DNA from: an uncultured Prevotellaceae bacterium
GTDB lineage: Bacteria; Bacteroidota; Bacteroidia; Bacteroidales; Bacteroidaceae
Assembly: GCA_902783165.1 (NCBI GenBank)
Contig: CACZPU010000008.1
Span: 3,487 to 67,486, forward strand
DNA: 64,000 bases
Direction of reading: 5' to 3'
Positions 2,370 to 55,369 of the stretch are shown here, piece after piece. Position 1 is the first letter of the stretch; each line of letters opens with the position of its first letter. Made by a program: the position numbers and the translations under genes. The notes under the pieces are model-generated. The model saw only the letters and a program-made list of their open reading frames with translations. It did no database searches and was not told where the DNA came from.

Positions 2370-3794
2370 ATGAAGAACGGAAAGACTTGCTTCGGGGTCA
2401 TCATCGGCACCCGTGCCTATTTTAATTCAGAACTTGCACGCGATGTTCGCAAACAACTTCTGAAAGTTATTGAGGAACAAGGTTATGAATACGTAATCCT
2501 TCCTGAAGATGCCACACCAACAGGAAGCAGTTCGATTGAAACGCTGGAAGACGGTGTGCTCTGTTCAGAGCTTTTCCGCCAGCACCGAGATGAGATAGAT
2601 GGTATCATTGTCAGTCTGCCAAACTTTGGTTTCGAGATAGGTATCATTAATGCTATCAGCCGTGCAGAACTGAATGTGCCTATTCTGGTTCAAGCATGTG
2701 ACGACGAGAACGACAAAGTGGATTTGGACAGCCGTCGTGATGCTTTCTGTGGAAAGATATCTGTTTGCAATAACCTCTATCAATATGGCATCCCATTCAC
2801 CGACACCACATTGCACACCTATTCTATATATAGCGATACACTGGTGCAGGACATCAACAAGTTCGCCGCTGTTTGTTGCGTGGTGAACACCTTGCGTCAC
2901 TGCCGTATTGGCCAAATAGGAACCCGTCCGTTAGGTTTCAACACTTGTCGTGCCAGCGAGAAACTCTTGCAACGTAGCGGCATCACTGTTGTGCCTGCAG
3001 ACCTCTCGGAATTGCTTTTTGCTGCAGATAAGATTGCCGACGACGATCCTGCTCTGCTGAAAAAGATGGAGGATGTGCGTGGTTATGCAAGAGTGCCAGA
3101 GGCTTATGAAGAAAAGTTGAAGACACAGGCCAAGTTTGGCGTGGCTGTGGAAAACTGGGTGAAAGTGAACAAGGTGGATGCTGTTGCTCTTCAGTGTTGG
3201 GACTCTCTGGAAGTGAACTACGGCTGTGCTCCTTGCATCACCATGGCCATGTTGGGCGATATGGGCATTCCTTGTGCTTGCGAGACCGACATAGCCGGAG
3301 CCGTTTCAATGCTGGCATTGCATCTTGCCTCTGGTAAGGCTTCCGCTTTGGCAGACTGGAACAACAACTTTGCCGAAGACCGCAACAAGTGTGTCTGCAC
3401 ACATTGTGGTAATTTCCCCAAGTCGTTTGTGGGTAACAACGATGTGAAACTTGGTCCGTTGGGTGTACTGGGACGTACACTTGGCAAGGTACGCACATTT
3501 GGAGCTGTCTATGCTAAGGTATCAGAGGGCGACTTCACCTTCTTCCGTATTTCCACCGACGATCCGCGTGGTTGTATCAAAGCCTATCTTGGCGAAGGCA
3601 ATATCACCAATGAGCCTTACGGAATGGATGGTTGCATTGCCGTGACCAAGGTGGACAACCTCCAGAAGCTGATGAAATTTATCTGCAAGAACGGATTCGA
3701 GCACCATGTGGCATTGGTACGCAGCCATGTGGCAGAGATTGTTCGCGAGGCCATAGAGACCTATCTCGGTTGGGAACTTTATGTTCACGAGTAG
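2370..3794 (+). CDS. L-fucose/L-arabinose isomerase family sugar isomerase
   Basis: 474 aa ORF with LPNFGFE, RRDAFCGK, CETD, DWNN, HCGN and C-terminal FEHH, recognised as the fucose-isomerase-related family. Confidence 0.75.
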   Translation: MKNGKTCFGVIIGTRAYFNSELARDVRKQLLKVIEEQGYEYVILPEDATPTGSSSIETLEDGVLCSELFRQHRDEIDGIIVSLPNFGFEIGIINAISRAELNVPILVQACDDENDKVDLDSRRDAFCGKISVCNNLYQYGIPFTDTTLHTYSIYSDTLVQDINKFAAVCCVVNTLRHCRIGQIGTRPLGFNTCRASEKLLQRSGITVVPADLSELLFAADKIADDDPALLKKMEDVRGYARVPEAYEEKLKTQAKFGVAVENWVKVNKVDAVALQCWDSLEVNYGCAPCITMAMLGDMGIPCACETDIAGAVSMLALHLASGKASALADWNNNFAEDRNKCVCTHCGNFPKSFVGNNDVKLGPLGVLGRTLGKVRTFGAVYAKVSEGDFTFFRISTDDPRGCIKAYLGEGNITNEPYGMDGCIAVTKVDNLQKLMKFICKNGFEHHVALVRSHVAEIVREAIETYLGWELYVHE

Positions 3795-3820
3795 TGGCTT
3801 GTAGTGAGAAATAAAATGCA

Positions 3821-3853
3821 AAAAGTCTCGACTCATGGAGCCGAGACTTTTTT
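3821..3853 (+). terminator. Rho-independent terminator of the sugar operon
   Basis: AAAAGTCTCG (3821-3830) pairs with CGAGACTTTT (3842-3851), followed by a T run. Confidence 0.8.
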
Positions 3854-4009
3854 GTTTCTTGTTGTTTTTCCTTTTCCTTAACTCCCAATCGGTCATTGGC
3901 CCGACAATAATTGTTTCGCTTATCGAGTCTGTTCTGACACTATTGACTGCTTTGGGTTAAACAAAACTAAAAATCTTTGCCTGTTGGTCGGCTTATTATA
4001 ATTATTGTG

Positions 4010-33934: not shown

Positions 33935-35056
33935 ATGGAAAACAAGCTAACCGACAATTGCATGAAATTGGGTTTCGGTATGATGCGACTGCCGAAAATT
34001 GAAGGAACGAAAGACATTGATATTGAGCACACCAAGAGAATGGTGGATGCTTTCATACAGGCTGGCGGCAAATATTTTGACACCGCCTATGTATACGAAG
34101 GTTCGGAGGCTGCCACCAAACTTGCGCTCTGCGACCGATATCCTCGCGATAGCTATTACCTAGCCGACAAGCTCAATGCCTCTGACTTTGCCTGCAAGAC
34201 CGAGGAAGAGGCCAAGAACGAAATCAATGTCAGCCTTGAGCGCACAGGCGCGGGATACTTCGATTTCTATCTTCTCCATGGCATCGATTCGGGCAACAAG
34301 GACAAATACACTCAATATGGCATTTGGGATTACGTGAAGGGCCTGAAGGAAAAGGGGCTTGTCCGCCACTATGGATTCTCCTTCCACTCTGACCCCGACC
34401 AGCTCGAGGAACTGCTCACCGAACATCCCGATGTTGAATTTGTGCAACTCCAAATCAACTATTCCGATTGGGACGACCCTTTCATCGCATCGCGCCGCTG
34501 CTATGAAGTGGCCACTCGTCATGGTGTGCCCATTGTCGTGATGGAGCCCGTGAAAGGTGGCAAGCTAAGCAATCCTCCTCAGCAGGTGAAGGATATTCTG
34601 AAACAAGCCAACCCCGAGGCATCCTATGCATCATGGGCCATCCGATTTGCTGCATCGCTGCCCAATGTGATGATGGTGCTCAGCGGTATGTCGAACATGG
34701 AGCAAATGGAAGACAATGTGTCATTCATGCACGAACTGCAACCCCTGAATGATGAAGAACAGCGTGTTTTGGCAGCTGCCTGCAAGGCATTGTCAGAGTT
34801 CGATGGCATTGCTTGCACCGCTTGCCATTATTGTACTCCCGGCTGTCCCATGGAAATTCACATTCCCGAGATTTTTGCGGTGATGAATGTGTACAAGATG
34901 TATGGCGACTTGAACGAGGCGCGCAACGAATACCAATGGCGTCCTGGGGGTGAGAAGGCCTCGGCTTGTGTGCAATGTGGTCAGTGTGAGAATGCTTGTC
35001 CGCAGCATCTTCCCATCATCAGTCTGCTGGAAGAGGTGGCGGAAACGTTGGAGTGA
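33935..35056 (+). CDS. Cytoplasmic aldo/keto reductase with 4Fe-4S dicluster
   Basis: LGFGMMRLP, FDTAYVY, LLHG, CTACHYCTPGCP and CVQCGQCENACP motifs. No export signal. Confidence 0.88.
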   Translation: MENKLTDNCMKLGFGMMRLPKIEGTKDIDIEHTKRMVDAFIQAGGKYFDTAYVYEGSEAATKLALCDRYPRDSYYLADKLNASDFACKTEEEAKNEINVSLERTGAGYFDFYLLHGIDSGNKDKYTQYGIWDYVKGLKEKGLVRHYGFSFHSDPDQLEELLTEHPDVEFVQLQINYSDWDDPFIASRRCYEVATRHGVPIVVMEPVKGGKLSNPPQQVKDILKQANPEASYASWAIRFAASLPNVMMVLSGMSNMEQMEDNVSFMHELQPLNDEEQRVLAAACKALSEFDGIACTACHYCTPGCPMEIHIPEIFAVMNVYKMYGDLNEARNEYQWRPGGEKASACVQCGQCENACPQHLPIISLLEEVAETLE

Positions 35057-35313
35057 TGCCGGCCTATGCCATCTTTCGAGGCATTTGGCGACCGAGTTCT
35101 CTGTCGGCTACCGATTGTAAAAGGATGGAATAGGGGAGTGGTATCATCATTAGAGCGCTCCGTTTTTTGAGTCAGCAGTCCATGACTTGTTCTGTTTGGC
35201 GCTTTCATACAAACGTATTTCACATGGCCTGGCCAACATATTGGCCAGGCTTATTTGTGCCATTCCCGAACAAGCAGAAAAAGATGGTTTGATGATGAAT
35301 GATGATTTGGATT

Positions 35314-35456
35314 ATTACAGATGCTTTGTAGAAGTTCTACAAGGCATCTGTAATACTTCTACAAAGCATTTGTAATCATTCTACAAAGCATTTGTAATAC
35401 TTCTACAGATTATGTCTTAAAATCCTGTAATCCAATTACAGACAATCTTTGTAGAA
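35314..35456. repeat. 22-bp tandem array (consensus TTCTACAAAGCATTTGTAATAC) with inverted copies
   Basis: Direct copies at 35335, 35357 and 35379, a partial copy at 35401, an inverted copy at 35314-35333 and a degenerate inverted copy at 35435-35456. Confidence 0.9.
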
Positions 35457-35461
35457 GGTTT

Positions 35462-35502: not shown

Positions 35503-36438
35503 TTATTTGACGATATCTATCAGTTCGAGCGTGAAAATGAGGGTGCTACAGGGAGGAATCTCGCCCATGTCGCGTTTGCCGTATGCCAGTTCTTGTGGGA
35601 TGAAGAGTTTCCACTTGCTGCCCACGGGCATCATGGTGAGTGCTTCTGTCCAACCCTTGATGAGCTGGTTGGCGCGGAACTTGTTGGTTTGTTCCGTACG
35701 CTTGTAGCTGCTGTCGAACACAGTTCCGTCGATGAGGCTGCCCTCGTATTTCACAATGACCTCATCGTCGGCCTTCGGGATGGCACCGTTTCCCTGGGTG
35801 AGAACGATATATTGCAATCCGCTGGGTGTGGTTTTCACTCCCTCGCGCAGCTTGTTTTCAGCAAGGAATTGCTCTCCGGCCTTCCTATTGGTCTCTGCTT
35901 GGGCCGCTTTCTTGGCGTCTTCTTCCAGTTTTTTCTTTGCTTTTATCTCGGCAACCTTCTCCATGCACCCTTTGAAAAGTTTGTTGGCGTCGTTGGAAGA
36001 TATCAGCGTGGTGTCGTTTTTCAATGCAGCGATGAAGCCTTGGTAGAAGAGAGGAGCCTGAACGCTGTCGGAAACGGTTGCCAACGAGCTTGAGATGTCG
36101 GACAGCATGCGCTCTTTCACCATTTTGGCTATTTGTATGCCGGCGCTATAGGCCTTGACAGGGTCGTCGAAATTGCTCTTCACGGCGTCCTCGAAACCGC
36201 GTACGAAATCGTCGAGAAAGGCTTCCTCCACCCCATATTGTTGTTTGATATAGTTGGTGAGACCTTCTGTGACGGCCATTCCCGAGGCAAAGCTGATGGA
36301 ATCGGAAGGAGTGTTCAGAACGACAGCAGGCATTTGAGTGGCGGCTTTTTTCTTCTTCTTGTCCTTCTTTTCAGCATTGGCCTGGCAGAAAGAAGCACCC
36401 ACCACGAGGGTGAGTGCTATGATAATAATCTTTCTCAT
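35503..36438 (-). CDS. FKBP-type peptidyl-prolyl isomerase (secreted, duplicated N-domain)
   Basis: VKYEGSLIDGTVFDSS, LIKGWTEAL, MPVGSKW and ELAYG motifs, with a signal peptide. Confidence 0.92.
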   Translation of the reverse strand: MRKIIIIALTLVVGASFCQANAEKKDKKKKKAATQMPAVVLNTPSDSISFASGMAVTEGLTNYIKQQYGVEEAFLDDFVRGFEDAVKSNFDDPVKAYSAGIQIAKMVKERMLSDISSSLATVSDSVQAPLFYQGFIAALKNDTTLISSNDANKLFKGCMEKVAEIKAKKKLEEDAKKAAQAETNRKAGEQFLAENKLREGVKTTPSGLQYIVLTQGNGAIPKADDEVIVKYEGSLIDGTVFDSSYKRTEQTNKFRANQLIKGWTEALTMMPVGSKWKLFIPQELAYGKRDMGEIPPCSTLIFTLELIDIVK

Positions 36439-52982: not shown

Positions 52983-54062
52983 CTAGAAAAAGACAATACA
53001 AACACAAGCAATGACCACCATCATAGCTTCTGCCGATTGATTTACCTTGCAGGCCAGAGTCATATCGGCAGAAGTGAGTGGGCGGTCGTGCGTACCGATG
53101 TTTGGTTTCTCGATGGTTTCGCCAAAGTAGATGTGCGTTCCTCCAAACTGGCAATCGAGAATCCCGGCCAAGGCACTCTCCGGCCATCCGCTATTGGGTG
53201 AGGCATGTTGGTTGCCGTACCGTCCCACGAAACGGATAAGCTCCCAAACATTCCGCCCTTTCATCTCAGATTTCTTTGTCGACGAATTGTTTATTCCGCT
53301 TTTCTCATGCTCTGCTTCTGCACATTCGTCTGTACTTTTCTCATGGCCTTCCTTATTCTCTCCTTTACATAATCCCATTATGGTCATCAGCCGATAGCCA
53401 ACAATCATGAGCAAGGCAGTAAGGCGTGCGGGAATATAGTTGGCCACATCGTCGATGCGGGCAGCTACCGTGCCGAAATGCCGATAACGCTCTGTCCGGT
53501 AGCCAATCATAGAGTCGAGTGTGTTCACCATTTTGTAGGTCATCATACCTGGAACACCTATGAGTATCAGCCAGAAAAGAGGTGCTATCACTCCATCGGA
53601 GAGGTTCTCGGCAAGTGTCTCGAGGGCGGCTTTGCGTATCTCTTGTGCATCGAGTTGCGAGGTGTCGCGGCCCACGATGCGTGCCACTTGGCTTCGGCCC
53701 TCATCAATCGAGCGGTCGAGTGCTTCGAATACCATGCGCACCTCCTTGATGAGTGTTGTTCCTGCAAGACAGAAGAAGATGAGAATGGTTTGGAGAATGA
53801 CCACTATAGCGGTGCTCCACAATCGATAATTGTCGCCCAAGAGCATAGGAACGCGCAATAACAACCACGTGAGCGCAAAGGTGGCCAGAATCAATGTCAC
53901 GGCCATCAGGCCACCCTTTGCCCGGCGATGTGCCCCCTTGTTCAGCAGACGCTCTCCACAAGCAATGGCCTTGCCGAAATAGACCACTGGGTGTGGCCAT
54001 TTTGGCGGGTCGCCCAAAAGCTTGTCGAGAAGCCATCCTATGATAAGTGAAATGTAGGTCAT
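52983..54062 (-). CDS. cbiB: Adenosylcobinamide-phosphate synthase
   Basis: GDPPKWPHPV, IVGRDT, LAENLSDGVIAP, YKMVNTLDSMIG and SPNSGWPE motifs. Start set at MTYIS. Confidence 0.93.
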   Translation of the reverse strand: MTYISLIIGWLLDKLLGDPPKWPHPVVYFGKAIACGERLLNKGAHRRAKGGLMAVTLILATFALTWLLLRVPMLLGDNYRLWSTAIVVILQTILIFFCLAGTTLIKEVRMVFEALDRSIDEGRSQVARIVGRDTSQLDAQEIRKAALETLAENLSDGVIAPLFWLILIGVPGMMTYKMVNTLDSMIGYRTERYRHFGTVAARIDDVANYIPARLTALLMIVGYRLMTIMGLCKGENKEGHEKSTDECAEAEHEKSGINNSSTKKSEMKGRNVWELIRFVGRYGNQHASPNSGWPESALAGILDCQFGGTHIYFGETIEKPNIGTHDRPLTSADMTLACKVNQSAEAMMVVIACVCIVFF

Positions 54063-54140: not shown

Positions 54141-54249
54141 GTTGTACATCTTATATGTACAACTTGTACAAGTAACATGTACGGCTTGTACATATAAGAT
54201 GTACAACTTGTACAAGTTAGATGTACAACTCTAATAAATGACGTGTACA
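54141..54249. repeat. 22-bp tandem array of self-palindromic TGTACA units
   Basis: Units at 54142, 54164, 54186 and 54208 plus a degenerate fifth. 54141-54162 is the exact reverse complement of 54186-54207. Confidence 0.9.
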
Positions 54250-54322
54250 TTTTTAAAACATTTATCCCCATTCTATATGTAGTCATTACACATTTTGTGT
54301 GCAATGTGTTTTCTTTGGTGAA

Positions 54323-55369
54323 TCACTGCTCGCACAATTGGCGCAAAGCGTTGACGAGCAGCTTGTTTTCTTCGGGCGATTGAGCCGCAACGCGGATGTA
54401 ATGTCGGTTGAGTCCGGCAAAATTATGTGCTGAGCGTATAAGAATGCCATATTCGTCAACCAACCTGCGCTTCATCACGATGCTGTCTTTGCCGGGCATG
54501 TGTATCAGCATGAAGTGGGTTTGGGTGGGCAGAGCCTCTATGCCGCCTATGGTATTGAGTTCGGCGTTGAGGTGCTGGGCTTCTTGCAAGTAGGTTTCTA
54601 TGTCGAACAGGAAATCGTCGGCATGCTCGAGGATGTACTGGCATGCTTGTGAGGCCAGCGCGTTCACGCTCCATGGCATACGGTATTGGCGCAATGTTTC
54701 GGCGAGCGGTTCGGGTGCCGTGACGTATCCGAGCCGCAATCCGGGAATGGAATATTTCTTGGTCATGGAGTGGAGCAGAATGCAGTTGCCCAAGAGAGCA
54801 ACCTCACGCGGTTGAATAAGTTCCTCTTGGCAGAAGAATTCATAGCTTTGGTCGATGACAAACACGGTGTGTGGATGGTTCATCATGCTTTCCACCAACT
54901 GTACTTTGGGAATCACCTTGCCGGTGGGGTTGTTGGGGTTGCATAGCCACACGAGGTTCATCTCATCGGTTACCTCCTCCAACGAACGGATGTGCTTCAC
55001 CTCGTGACCATGCATTCGGCATGCGTCCTCATATTCGCTGAAAGTAGGAATGAGGATGGCTGTGAGGCATCTCTGGCGGTTCACCTCGTCGTTGTCGAAA
55101 GCCGCTGCGGTGGCTTGTGCAATGAGGTAAATGGCTTCGGTGGCGCCGTTGGTTATCAAGTTCTCCTCTTGGCGGTTTTGAAATCTTGTGGCGAGCATTC
55201 GCTCCAAGCTTTTCATTTCTGCCGGAGGGTAGTTTCCTATGCACCCTATGGATTGTTGCAGGTGCTCGCAGAGTCCTGGCATTTGTATGGCGTGGTAGAC
55301 ATTCGAACTGAAATTATGCCGTATGTCGCCCGAATAATCATAGATGTCGTCGCCGTGTCCTTGTATCAT
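54323..55369 (-). CDS. cobD: Threonine-phosphate decarboxylase (PLP class I/II; Salmonella CobD / aerobic CobC)
   Basis: MIQGHG, FSSN, CNPNNPTG and SMTKKYSIPGLRLGY motifs. Upstream of cbiB. Confidence 0.85.
   Translation of the reverse strand: MIQGHGDDIYDYSGDIRHNFSSNVYHAIQMPGLCEHLQQSIGCIGNYPPAEMKSLERMLATRFQNRQEENLITNGATEAIYLIAQATAAAFDNDEVNRQRCLTAILIPTFSEYEDACRMHGHEVKHIRSLEEVTDEMNLVWLCNPNNPTGKVIPKVQLVESMMNHPHTVFVIDQSYEFFCQEELIQPREVALLGNCILLHSMTKKYSIPGLRLGYVTAPEPLAETLRQYRMPWSVNALASQACQYILEHADDFLFDIETYLQEAQHLNAELNTIGGIEALPTQTHFMLIHMPGKDSIVMKRRLVDEYGILIRSAHNFAGLNRHYIRVAAQSPEENKLLVNALRQLCEQ

What the first reader, a model, noticed from the sequence alone, without database searches (positions are those of the whole stretch)
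35314..35456. 22-bp array with exact 11-bp-phased TACA-N7-TGTA-N7 skeleton shared with a second, different array
Seen: half-sites alternate TACA/TGTA at 35316, 35327, 35338, 35349, 35360, 35371, 35382, 35393 and 35404, every 11 bp. The phase holds even across the inversion point at 35334. The array at 54.1 kb has the same skeleton with different N7 fillers. There are no unique spacers, so it is not CRISPR. Inference: conserved half-sites with free fillers at about one helical turn suggest a protein lattice on one face of the DNA, such as a nucleoid, repressor or iteron-like binder. An alternative is a dispersed family of self-amplifying palindromic repeats. I know of no named element with this rule.
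Basis: partly seen in the sequence, partly recalled or inferred. Interest (0 to 1): 0.72.

Follow-up and report, generated by a model that had tools for sequence, protein, structure and literature searches.

The report
Phased palindrome arrays tied to DUF6078
The array is one of about 22 scattered copies of 22-base palindromic repeat arrays in this rumen Prevotella genome, and each array type also sits beside the gene for a small uncharacterised zinc protein (DUF6078) that probably recognises it, a repeat-and-protein pairing I found in no paper.

Summary
TACA and TGTA alternate every 11 bp at 35316-35407, across the unit inversion at 35334. The 54.1-kb array has the same skeleton (13 matches in the window, 0 in shuffles).

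These are not two private sites. The genome holds 22 such arrays in two families: A (about 10 loci, including this one) and B (about 12, including the 54.1-kb array). The skeleton occurs in 43 of 401 species of the genus, with 0 hits for a mirrored control.

All arrays are intergenic, between housekeeping genes and mostly just past a gene's 3' end. Both window arrays have the same length in 10 other strains.

The key link is a small Cys4 protein gene, DUF6078 (PF19555). It almost always has a 21-22-bp palindromic array next to it (31 of 43 loci). Each paralog has its own unit type, and that type is the one scattered through the same genome. In this genome one paralog carries a family A array and another a B-like array.

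No RAYT link, Rfam family, spacers or rep gene were found.

Best reading: these are dispersed recognition arrays of DUF6078 paralogs, analogous to REP/RAYT but with an unrelated protein. Binding itself is inferred. How the arrays spread, and what they do at gene ends, is unknown.

The parts
35314..35407 (.). Array 1 core (family A). One inverted unit (35314-35334), three direct 22-bp units (35335-35400) and a partial unit. Nine TACA/TGTA half-sites lie exactly 11 bp apart.
   Evidence: (TRF: period 22, 3.3 copies).
35408..35457 (.). Family A tail module. It holds the palindrome TGTAATCCAATTACA (35426-35440) and a last diverged inverted unit ATTACAGACAATCTTTGTAGAAG (35435-35457). A like module (CAGACAATnTCTGTAAT-N4-TTACAG) ends most family A copies.
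33935..35056 (+). Aldo-keto reductase gene with a C-terminal Fe-S domain. It is the left neighbour, converging on array 1.
   Evidence: Pfam Aldo_ket_red, Fer4.
35226..35251 (+). Intrinsic terminator of the reductase gene. It lies upstream of array 1, so the array is outside that transcript.
35503..36438 (-). FKBP-type peptidyl-prolyl isomerase gene. Its stop codon is 46 bp from the array tail, and no canonical terminator lies between.
54142..54230 (.). Array 2 core (family B). TGTACA hexamers are spaced 13 and 9 bp alternately (22-bp period), and the whole array is a long palindrome centred on TGTACGGCTTGTACA.
54231..54265 (.). Family B tail module (TGTACA followed by TTTTTAAAACATTT). A like TTGAAAACATT motif follows most family B copies.
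52983..54062 (-). cobD/cbiB gene, 80 bp downstream of array 2 on the minus strand.
   Evidence: Pfam CobD_Cbib, 359 aa.
54323..55369 (-). Class I/II aminotransferase gene (CobC-like). Array 2 lies in the 260-bp spacer between it and cobD, with no terminator, so it is probably co-transcribed.

Best explanation
Array 1 is one of about 10 family A copies, and the 54.1-kb array one of about 12 family B copies, of a dispersed non-coding element. The element is a row of 22-bp units carrying inverted half-sites (TACA/TGTA) exactly one helical turn apart, usually closed by a short family-specific tail.

Each family is the partner of one paralog of DUF6078. This is a roughly 145-residue protein with four conserved cysteines and no known function. 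Each paralog's gene keeps a 'home' array of the same type right beside it.

My proposed mechanism is that DUF6078 recognises the half-sites as a symmetric oligomer. Because the sites repeat every 11 and 22 bp, the bound proteins would line up on one face of the DNA as a continuous row. At its own gene this would give autoregulation. At the scattered copies it would mark gene ends, perhaps as a roadblock or insulator.

Shown: the dispersed families, their phase, their stability within the species, and the gene-array linkage with matching types.

Inferred: binding, whether DNA or RNA is the target, what the scattered copies do, and how they were copied to new sites.
For: Dispersed family:
- The genome has 22 phased arrays, all intergenic with unique flanks.
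- The skeleton occurs in 43 of 401 species of the genus, and the mirrored control pattern in 0.

Gene linkage:
- The genome's three DUF6078 genes each have an array. C11:11205-11633 has a family A array starting 3 nt after its stop. C16:39782-40216 has a B-like TGTAC array with 13/9 spacing between its promoter and start codon. C46:9715-10140 has three GTCCCA-N5-TGGGAC units.
- Across genomes, 31 of 43 DUF6078 loci have a period 21-23 or 44 array within 300 bp. Against an 11% background this gives p = 8e-21.

Type matching:
- TTACC-N7-GGTAA arrays occur in the three genomes tested whose DUF6078 gene has that type beside it (G068 8 loci, G081 4, G130 4). One array occurs in G002, whose one examined paralog carries another type, and one hit in G005. 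Seven other genomes, including three with no DUF6078 gene, and the control have none.
- 36 of 43 genomes with TACA arrays carry PF19555, against 189 of 358 others (p = 7e-5). All seven misses are at most 85% complete, and two of them had only one or two hits.
- In the protein tree the clade of the C11 paralog carries TTACA/CTACA units and the clade of the C16 paralog carries GTACA/TATACA units.

Behaviour of the arrays:
- Some home arrays overlap the promoter or 5' UTR, the usual place for an autoregulatory operator.
- In 10 same-species contigs per locus, all three arrays checked keep their length. The 6 SNPs seen in the array 1 spacer avoid the TACA/TGTA cores.
- In family A the complementarity beyond the 4-bp core is only 33-55%. 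Single units are therefore poor hairpins, which fits recognition on duplex DNA.

The protein:
- It folds with high confidence (pLDDT 94) and has no catalytic signature that I could recognise.
Against: - No binding experiment or protein-DNA model was possible.
- The predicted fold matches nothing known, so DNA binding rests on context alone.
- Binding sites for a regulator do not explain how 3-5-unit arrays came to lie after unrelated housekeeping genes. Some copying mechanism is still needed.
- The largest 22-bp family in this genome (family D, GAAA-N7-TTTC, 26 loci), and its look-alike in G290, have no DUF6078 gene beside them.
- A DUF6078-negative genome still has a few non-palindromic period-22 arrays.
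- Arrays with inverted units fold into long hairpins on either strand (z = -6.6 to -10), and array 2 is probably transcribed, so an RNA target is not excluded.
- The correlation across genomes is not corrected for phylogeny.
Confidence: 0.6

Rival explanations
1. These are selfish REP- or MITE-like repeats, and DUF6078 is the enzyme that copies them, a new kind of domesticated transposase or nuclease. Its gene sits next to a master copy, as RAYT genes sit among their REPs. On this reading the arrays have no host function, and the conserved TACA/TGTA are cleavage or recognition tags.
For: - Copy number is lineage-specific and varies widely, from a single hit to about 186 per genome.
- Each species has its own unit sequence.
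- The arrays lie at gene ends, where insertions do least harm.
- None of 160 loci orthologous to the reductase gene in other species has an array.
- Two copies of one locus (C22 and C97) differ by unit order and by a 22-bp insertion while their flanks are 95-100% identical.
- One oral-Prevotella strain lacks exactly one unit.
- The overall layout, a single-copy gene plus a home copy plus scattered copies, is that of REP/RAYT.
Against: - The conserved residues show no HUH, DDE or recombinase motif that I could recognise.
- The fold has no match to transposases (best TM 0.24).
- No terminal inverted repeats or target-site duplications were seen.
- Arrays are fixed in place and length in 10 strains at each of three loci.
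- Solo units are almost absent, unlike REPs.
Confidence: 0.2
2. The element works at the RNA level. The arrays are transcribed as 3' UTR or intercistronic hairpins that end or stabilise transcripts, as REPs do in E. coli. DUF6078 would then be an RNA-binding protein, or not involved at all.
For: - Both window arrays fold strongly on either strand (z = -6.6 to -10).
- Array 2 lies inside the aminotransferase-cobD spacer with no terminator.
- Array 1 follows the FKBP gene with no other terminator.
- The home array of the C11 paralog lies between the stop codon and a terminator hairpin, so it is in the 3' UTR.
- Most arrays lie 60-120 bp past a stop codon.
- The weak fold hits are RRM-like alpha/beta domains.
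Against: - Units occur in both orientations within one array and relative to the neighbouring gene, so no single RNA sequence is conserved.
- The conserved feature is a strand-symmetric skeleton.
- In direct arrays of family A the intra-unit stem is only 4 bp.
- Some home arrays lie upstream of the promoter, where they are not transcribed with the gene (L202 and L225).
- No Rfam family matches.
Confidence: 0.12
3. These are ordinary minisatellites made by replication slippage at palindromic seeds. They have no protein partner, and their position next to DUF6078 is chance or a shared insertion preference.
For: - Tandem head-to-tail units and some unit-number differences between strains or copies.
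- Period 22 is the commonest tandem period in the genome, and it includes families with no DUF6078 partner.
Against: - Slippage does not scatter one unit type to 10-50 unlinked loci.
- It does not explain why the type next to each DUF6078 paralog is the type scattered in that genome.
- The adjacency has p = 8e-21.
- Array length is stable in 10 strains at each of three loci.
Confidence: 0.04
4. The arrays are iterons or centromere-like sites of a replicon, or sites for chromosome partition or nucleoid organisation bound by a known protein such as Rep, ParB or ParR.
For: A 22-bp period and 11-bp phasing are typical of iterons (R6K) and of ParR/parC sites. This rests on my own knowledge.
Against: - No rep or par gene lies nearby. 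The flanks are housekeeping genes such as thrS, dnaG, dxs, miaA and cobD.
- There are 22 loci on many contigs.
- In the one complete genome checked, the arrays are spread over the whole 3.5-Mb chromosome (G068).
- Unit sequence changes from species to species.
Confidence: 0.02

Closest known systems
REP/BIME elements and REPINs with their RAYT (TnpA-REP, Y1 HUH) genes in Proteobacteria (PMC3733652)
   Same: Both are short palindromic non-coding units, clustered in either orientation in intergenic DNA and mostly at gene ends. Sequences are species-specific. Several families can coexist in one genome, each tied to its own single-copy gene that has copies of the repeat beside it.
   Different: - The partner gene is DUF6078, not a Y1 transposase. 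PF01797 is absent from this genome, uncorrelated with the arrays (7 of 13 against 7 of 13), and never flanked by them.
- Units are strictly 22 bp and abut head to tail in phase.
- Solo units are rare.
- Copy number is tens, not hundreds.
- The conserved tag is an internal TACA/TGTA pair, not a terminal GTAG or CGTC.
BrickBuilt minisatellite-MITE of Porphyromonas gingivalis (Klein et al. 2015, PMC4596501)
   Same: The host also belongs to Bacteroidales. The element is a spacer-less tandem repeat of 23 nt with flanking leader and tail modules. It has about 19 copies, always intergenic, and it breaks draft assemblies.
   Different: - The BrickBuilt unit (AGAYCATARTATCCTCTCRTRTG) is unrelated and not palindromic.
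- BrickBuilt has terminal inverted repeats shared with ISPg elements. None were found here.
- No cognate small protein is reported for BrickBuilt.
Arrays of short operator repeats bound cooperatively by small dimeric repressors (omega heptads of inc18 plasmids, ParR/parC 11-bp iterons, MetJ metboxes); from my own knowledge
   Same: Abutting short sites can occur in direct or inverted orientation, are phased with the helix, and are read by a small protein. The protein's own gene lies next to such an array.
   Different: Those arrays sit at promoters or centromeres of one replicon and regulate the adjacent genes. Here most copies lie after unrelated chromosomal housekeeping genes, and the protein fold is unrelated to RHH proteins as far as the searches show.
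Pfam PF19555 (DUF6078)
   Same: The three partner proteins in this genome match the family end to end (E = 1e-34 to 1e-37).
   Different: The family has no assigned function and appears in no paper in the searchable library. Its link to 22-bp arrays is not part of its description, as far as I could tell.

Membership tests
REP/REPIN-RAYT | A cognate RAYT (Y1_Tnp, PF01797) gene, flanked by the repeats. | tested here: not met
   There is no PF01797 match in this genome. It is present in 7 of 13 array-rich and 7 of 13 array-free genomes. No array lies near six Y1 genes.
REP/REPIN-RAYT | A 20-40-bp imperfect palindrome with a terminal GTAG or CGTC tag (PMC3733652). | tested here: inconclusive
   The units are 22-bp palindromes. 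Family A arms read TGTAGAAG, which contains GTAG. Family B has GTAC and related species have GTAA. The invariant part is TACA/TGTA.
REP/REPIN-RAYT | Many dispersed intergenic copies, as singletons and inverted doublets. | tested here: not met
   The copies are dispersed and intergenic, but there are only about 10-12 loci per family. Almost all are arrays of 2-5 units, and solo units are nearly absent.
MITE (BrickBuilt type) | Terminal inverted repeats shared with an IS, and target-site duplications. | tested here: inconclusive
   No consistent terminal inverted repeats or duplications were visible in aligned copies. No empty site was available to define the ends, because the relatives are too distant and the strains all carry the array.
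MITE (BrickBuilt type) | An internal spacer-less tandem repeat with conserved flanking modules. | tested here: met
   Each element is a 22-bp array plus a family-specific tail on one side. The unit sequence is unrelated to BrickBuilt.
CRISPR array | Repeats separated by unique spacers of similar length. | tested here: not met
   The units abut with no spacers.
Plasmid iterons / partition site | An adjacent rep or par gene on a replicon. | tested here: not met
   The flanks are chromosomal housekeeping genes, and there are 22 loci.
Known structured RNA (Rfam 15) | A match at the family's gathering score. | tested here: not met
   There were 0 hits in the window. Only sub-threshold generic-hairpin hits appeared at E up to 10.
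DUF6078-linked 22-bp arrays (provisional class, not in the literature) | A 22-bp period, palindromic units, and the same unit type beside a DUF6078 gene in the same genome. | tested here: met
   A family A array lies 3 nt after the C11 paralog, and a B-like array lies in the 5' region of the C16 paralog. The general rule holds at 31 of 43 loci, and types match across genomes.
DUF6078-linked 22-bp arrays (provisional class, not in the literature) | Physical binding of the protein to the array. | not testable with these tools
   This needs EMSA, footprinting, DAP-seq or a protein-DNA structure model.

The most novel reading that the evidence does not exclude
DUF6078 founds a new class of sequence-specific nucleic-acid-binding proteins with a fold not seen in solved structures. 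Its members would assemble as a same-face row on arrays of 22-bp phased palindromes. Paralogs would carry different, fast-evolving recognition codes (TACA, TACC, GTCC, GAAAC and others). The scattered arrays would be protein-marked punctuation at gene ends, for example transcription roadblocks or insulators, spread by a copying route not yet known.
Probability: 0.3. Interest if true: 0.85.

Novelty: new variant of a known kind. Interest (0 to 1): 0.72.

Why it matters
Prevotella are dominant gut and rumen bacteria, and their non-coding DNA is little studied. If the reading holds, it gives a first function to a protein family with no known role, found in 56% of the sampled species of the genus. 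It also explains a conspicuous class of repeats that break draft assemblies. It would add a second, unrelated example of the 'dispersed repeat plus cognate single-copy gene' arrangement so far known from REP/RAYT.

The many paralogs with visibly different half-sites offer a natural series for working out a new DNA-recognition code. The idea is directly testable, because a PF19555 match was also found in the Bacteroides thetaiotaomicron control genome and a close homologue is annotated in an oral Prevotella isolate.

Tried and rejected
- **RAYT/Y1 transposase as partner.** It is absent here and uncorrelated with the arrays.
- **Known RNA family.** Rfam gave nothing at gathering scores and only generic hairpin noise below them.
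- **Larger mobile element.** The flanks are unique except for one duplicated locus, C22/C97. Genome self-comparison found no IS carrying the arrays.
- **Empty-site comparison.** 160 loci orthologous to the reductase gene in other species have no array, but their intergenic DNA is unalignable and the reductase-FKBP gene order is not kept. The same-species contigs all carry the arrays. Insertion ends therefore could not be defined.
- **Function of DUF6078.** Sequence searches of the PDB gave no hit at E < 0.3. PHROGs gave nothing useful. Fold search of the PDB and BFVD gave no significant match. The first structure model, from 13 sequences, was poor (pLDDT 55). The 140-sequence alignment gave pLDDT 94.
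- **Partner for family D.** tblastn with the three paralogs found no fourth DUF6078 gene.
- **Literature.** Five searches found no description of these arrays or of DUF6078.

Full report
**1. The observation**

The sequence at 35314-35457 reads as follows:
- one unit, ATTACAGATGCTTTGTAGAAG (35314-35334);
- three direct 22-bp copies of its reverse complement, TTCTACAAAGCATYTGTAAT plus two bases (35335-35400);
- a partial unit;
- a 50-bp tail.

TACA and TGTA alternate at 35316, 35327 and so on up to 35404, exactly 11 bp apart, through the inversion at 35334. The pattern TACA-N7-TGTA-N7-TACA matches 13 times in the window, only here and at 54145-54225. It matches 0 times in 100 shuffles.

The second array (54142-54230) shares the skeleton only in a loose sense. 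Its true unit is the palindromic hexamer TGTACA at alternating 13- and 9-bp spacing. Both arrays follow one general rule: NNTACA-N7-TGTANN-N3, which adds up to 22 bp.

**2. A dispersed family, not two private sites**

- The window lies in a 2.73-Mb draft of 139 contigs.
- A scan for four or more phased half-sites finds 22 arrays. Ten are family A (unit about TTCTACAAAGCATCTGTAGAAG) and twelve are family B (unit about TTGTACATCTTATATGTACAAC).
- TACA-N7-TGTA occurs 118 times, against 21-58 for spacings of 3-13.
- Solo units are almost absent.
- Flanks are unique, apart from one duplicated locus, C22/C97.
- Every array is intergenic among ordinary genes such as thrS, dnaG, dxs, miaA and GAPDH. 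Of the 16 arrays with a gene called on both sides, four lie between convergent genes, ten between tandem genes and two between divergent genes. They are usually 60-120 bp past a stop codon.
- Most copies end in a family-specific tail: CAGACAATnTCTGTAAT-N4-TTACAG in family A and TGTACA-n-TTGAAAACATT in family B.
- Within a family the fillers are conserved but occur in both orientations (GATGCTT or AAGCATC; TCTTATA or TATAAGA). Whole units are therefore flipped about their dyad.

**3. Distribution**

- The organism is a rumen Prevotella. The best relatives of the reductase are 85% identical proteins from Prevotellaceae assemblies recovered from rumen metagenomes.
- A five-half-site skeleton occurs in 43 of 401 species of the genus, from a single hit up to about 140 hits per strand. 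Each genome has its own fillers. A mirrored control pattern occurs in none.
- The skeleton occurs in 0 of 24 other families of the order.
- TRF shows that period 22 is by far the commonest tandem period in this genome, with 58 loci. That count includes a larger family D, GTGAAAGATAAGGTTTCACCTT. It has the same geometry on GAAA/TTTC half-sites and 26 loci.
- TACA/TGTA is therefore a widespread code, but not the only one.

**4. What it is not**

- No Rfam family matches.
- There are no spacers, so it is not CRISPR.
- No rep or par genes lie nearby.
- There is no RAYT link. PF01797 is absent here, equally common in array-rich and array-free genomes, and never flanked by arrays.
- The P. gingivalis BrickBuilt element has a similar architecture, with a 23-nt spacer-less repeat plus leader and tail and 19 intergenic copies. 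Its sequence is unrelated, and it has IS-type terminal repeats.

**5. The partner gene**

A gene next to a family A array (C11:11205-11633) also lay next to an array in a second species. It is a full-length DUF6078 protein (PF19555, E = 8e-38).

All three DUF6078 genes of this genome have an array:
- The C11 paralog is followed, 3 nt after its stop, by a complete family A element.
- The C16 paralog (C16:39782-40216) has a B-like TGTAC array with 13/9 spacing between its promoter (TACTTTTG) and its start codon.
- The C46 paralog (C46:9715-10140) is followed by three GTCCCA-N5-TGGGAC units.

Across the genus and the order, 31 of 43 DUF6078 loci have a period 21-23 or 44 array within 300 bp. Inspection by eye adds several more. 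Against a generous 11% background this gives p = 8e-21. Each paralog has its own palindromic unit: TTACA, GTACA, TTACC, GTCCCA, GTCCGAAG, GGGTAAT, GAAAC, TGGCA and others.

**6. Types match**

- TTACC-N7-GGTAA arrays are found in the three genomes tested whose DUF6078 gene carries that type. G068 has 8 loci, spread over a complete 3.5-Mb chromosome. G081 and G130 have four each. One array also occurs in G002, whose one examined paralog carries another type, and there is one hit in G005.
- Seven other genomes have none, including three with no DUF6078 gene at all. The control pattern also has none.
- 36 of 43 genomes with TACA arrays have PF19555, against 189 of 358 others (p = 7e-5). All seven exceptions are at most 85% complete, and two of them had only one or two hits.
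- On the protein tree the C11 clade carries TTACA/CTACA units, with one TTACC sister. The C16 clade carries GTACA/TATACA units. The two GTCCCA proteins are sisters.
- A 400-kb sample of a DUF6078-positive genome (G290) has 61 TRF rows of period 22. The same amount of a DUF6078-negative genome (G031) has four, and those are not palindromic.

**7. Stability**

I retrieved 10 same-species metagenome contigs for each of three loci.
- The C11 home array is identical in all 10.
- The spacer holding array 2 is 260 bp in all 10, with two SNPs outside the array.
- The spacer holding array 1 is 446 bp in all 10. It has six SNPs in two strains, none in a TACA/TGTA core, against none in 1236 bp of flanking coding DNA (p = 3e-4).

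The arrays are therefore fixed features of the species, and the fillers can drift. Over longer times they change by whole units. One oral-Prevotella strain lacks exactly one unit. The C22 and C97 copies differ by unit order and by a 22-bp insertion.

**8. The protein**

- The family has 1083 clusters at 50% identity.
- C18 and C29 are invariant, and C23 and C58 nearly so. There is also a conserved FG-x3-YY-x2-R-x-G...P-x2-Q segment.
- With 140 sequences AlphaFold2 gives pLDDT 94 and pTM 0.83. The model has an N-terminal Cys4 region followed by a beta-alpha-alpha-beta-alpha-beta domain.
- Foldseek finds no significant relative in the PDB (best E = 0.57, TM 0.24). In BFVD it finds only small uncharacterised phage proteins.
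- No paper in the searchable library mentions the family.
- DUF6078 has no conserved neighbouring gene. Its neighbours differ between species.

**9. Reading**

The simplest account of a single-copy gene with a matching home array and scattered copies of the same type is that DUF6078 recognises the units.

Several points favour recognition of duplex DNA by a symmetric oligomer that lines up on one helical face:
- the half-sites are inverted;
- the phase is strictly 11/22 bp whatever the unit orientation;
- single family A units are poor hairpins;
- some home arrays sit at operator positions.

This is inference. An RNA target is not excluded. Long hairpins form on both strands, array 2 is probably co-transcribed, and the C11 home array lies in a 3' UTR. 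A catalytic role in copying the arrays is not excluded either. Some copying mechanism must exist, because such arrays do not arise independently at tens of loci.

Family D has no DUF6078 partner, and this remains unexplained.

**10. Earlier notes of this scan**

I had found the link myself before I looked up 'DUF6078' in the scan's notes. Those notes show that follow-ups on other genomes reached the same pairing. They agree with this report but are not independent proof.

New here:
- the cross-genome type-matching test;
- the genus-wide correlation;
- the within-species stability of three loci;
- the confident fold with no known relative;
- the unpartnered GAAA/TTTC family.

Noticed in passing
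Outside the window: G000 C117:41829-42407, with 12 or more copies at contig ends (C17, C30, C51, C88, C94, C95, C102, C116, C129, C133): A dispersed element of about 550 bp, 85-92% identical between copies. It consists of 8-13 units of a 22-bp repeat GTGAAAGATAAGGTTTCACCTT (GAAA-N7-TTTC-N7, 'family D') plus a conserved tail of about 350 bp carrying 11/23-bp CACACTGAACC repeats. With 26 array loci it is the largest repeat family of the genome. No DUF6078 gene lies beside it.
   Followed up: partly
Outside the window: G000 C4:12255-12436: A 66-bp tandem repeat (2.8 copies, 93% matches) built from family A-like modules (CTTGTAATCAAATTACAAG ... TTGTAGAAGGATTACAA). It runs into a family A array at the contig end.
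   Followed up: no
Outside the window: G000 C22:1-250 and C97:1-270: Two copies of one locus, either a duplication or strain variants merged in the assembly. Their flanks are 95-100% identical, but their family A arrays differ by the order of two units and by one extra diverged 22-bp unit.
   Followed up: partly
Outside the window: G000 C46:9715-10540; also L210 (G237): The GTCCCA-type DUF6078 paralog is followed in both genomes by a similar gene (MKFSFVSIDRQKN...TAEWFFERILSDTK...). This paralog may travel on a mobile element.
   Followed up: no
L302 (same-species contig), 2883-3936: In the one strain with four SNPs inside array 1, the neighbouring aldo-keto reductase gene is called as two pieces (109 aa and a 258-aa piece that runs off the end of the fetched stretch). 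This is either a frameshift or an assembly error.
   Followed up: no
L213 (G002), 302-1437: Large tandem repeats of 95-111 bp (2-3.5 copies), containing AATCTGTGAGAA-type words, lie just upstream of that genome's DUF6078 gene. A 22-bp array lies downstream of the same gene.
   Followed up: no
G000, whole genome (TRF): Period 12 is the second commonest tandem period, with 39 rows of at least 2.5 copies. I did not check whether these are coding repeats.
   Followed up: no
L249-L268 (G031, a DUF6078-negative genome): A few non-palindromic period-22 arrays, for example TAATCTGCATCAAGTTACAAGC in 5 copies, occur in a genome with no DUF6078 gene. The 22-bp period may therefore have more than one cause in this genus.
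   Followed up: no
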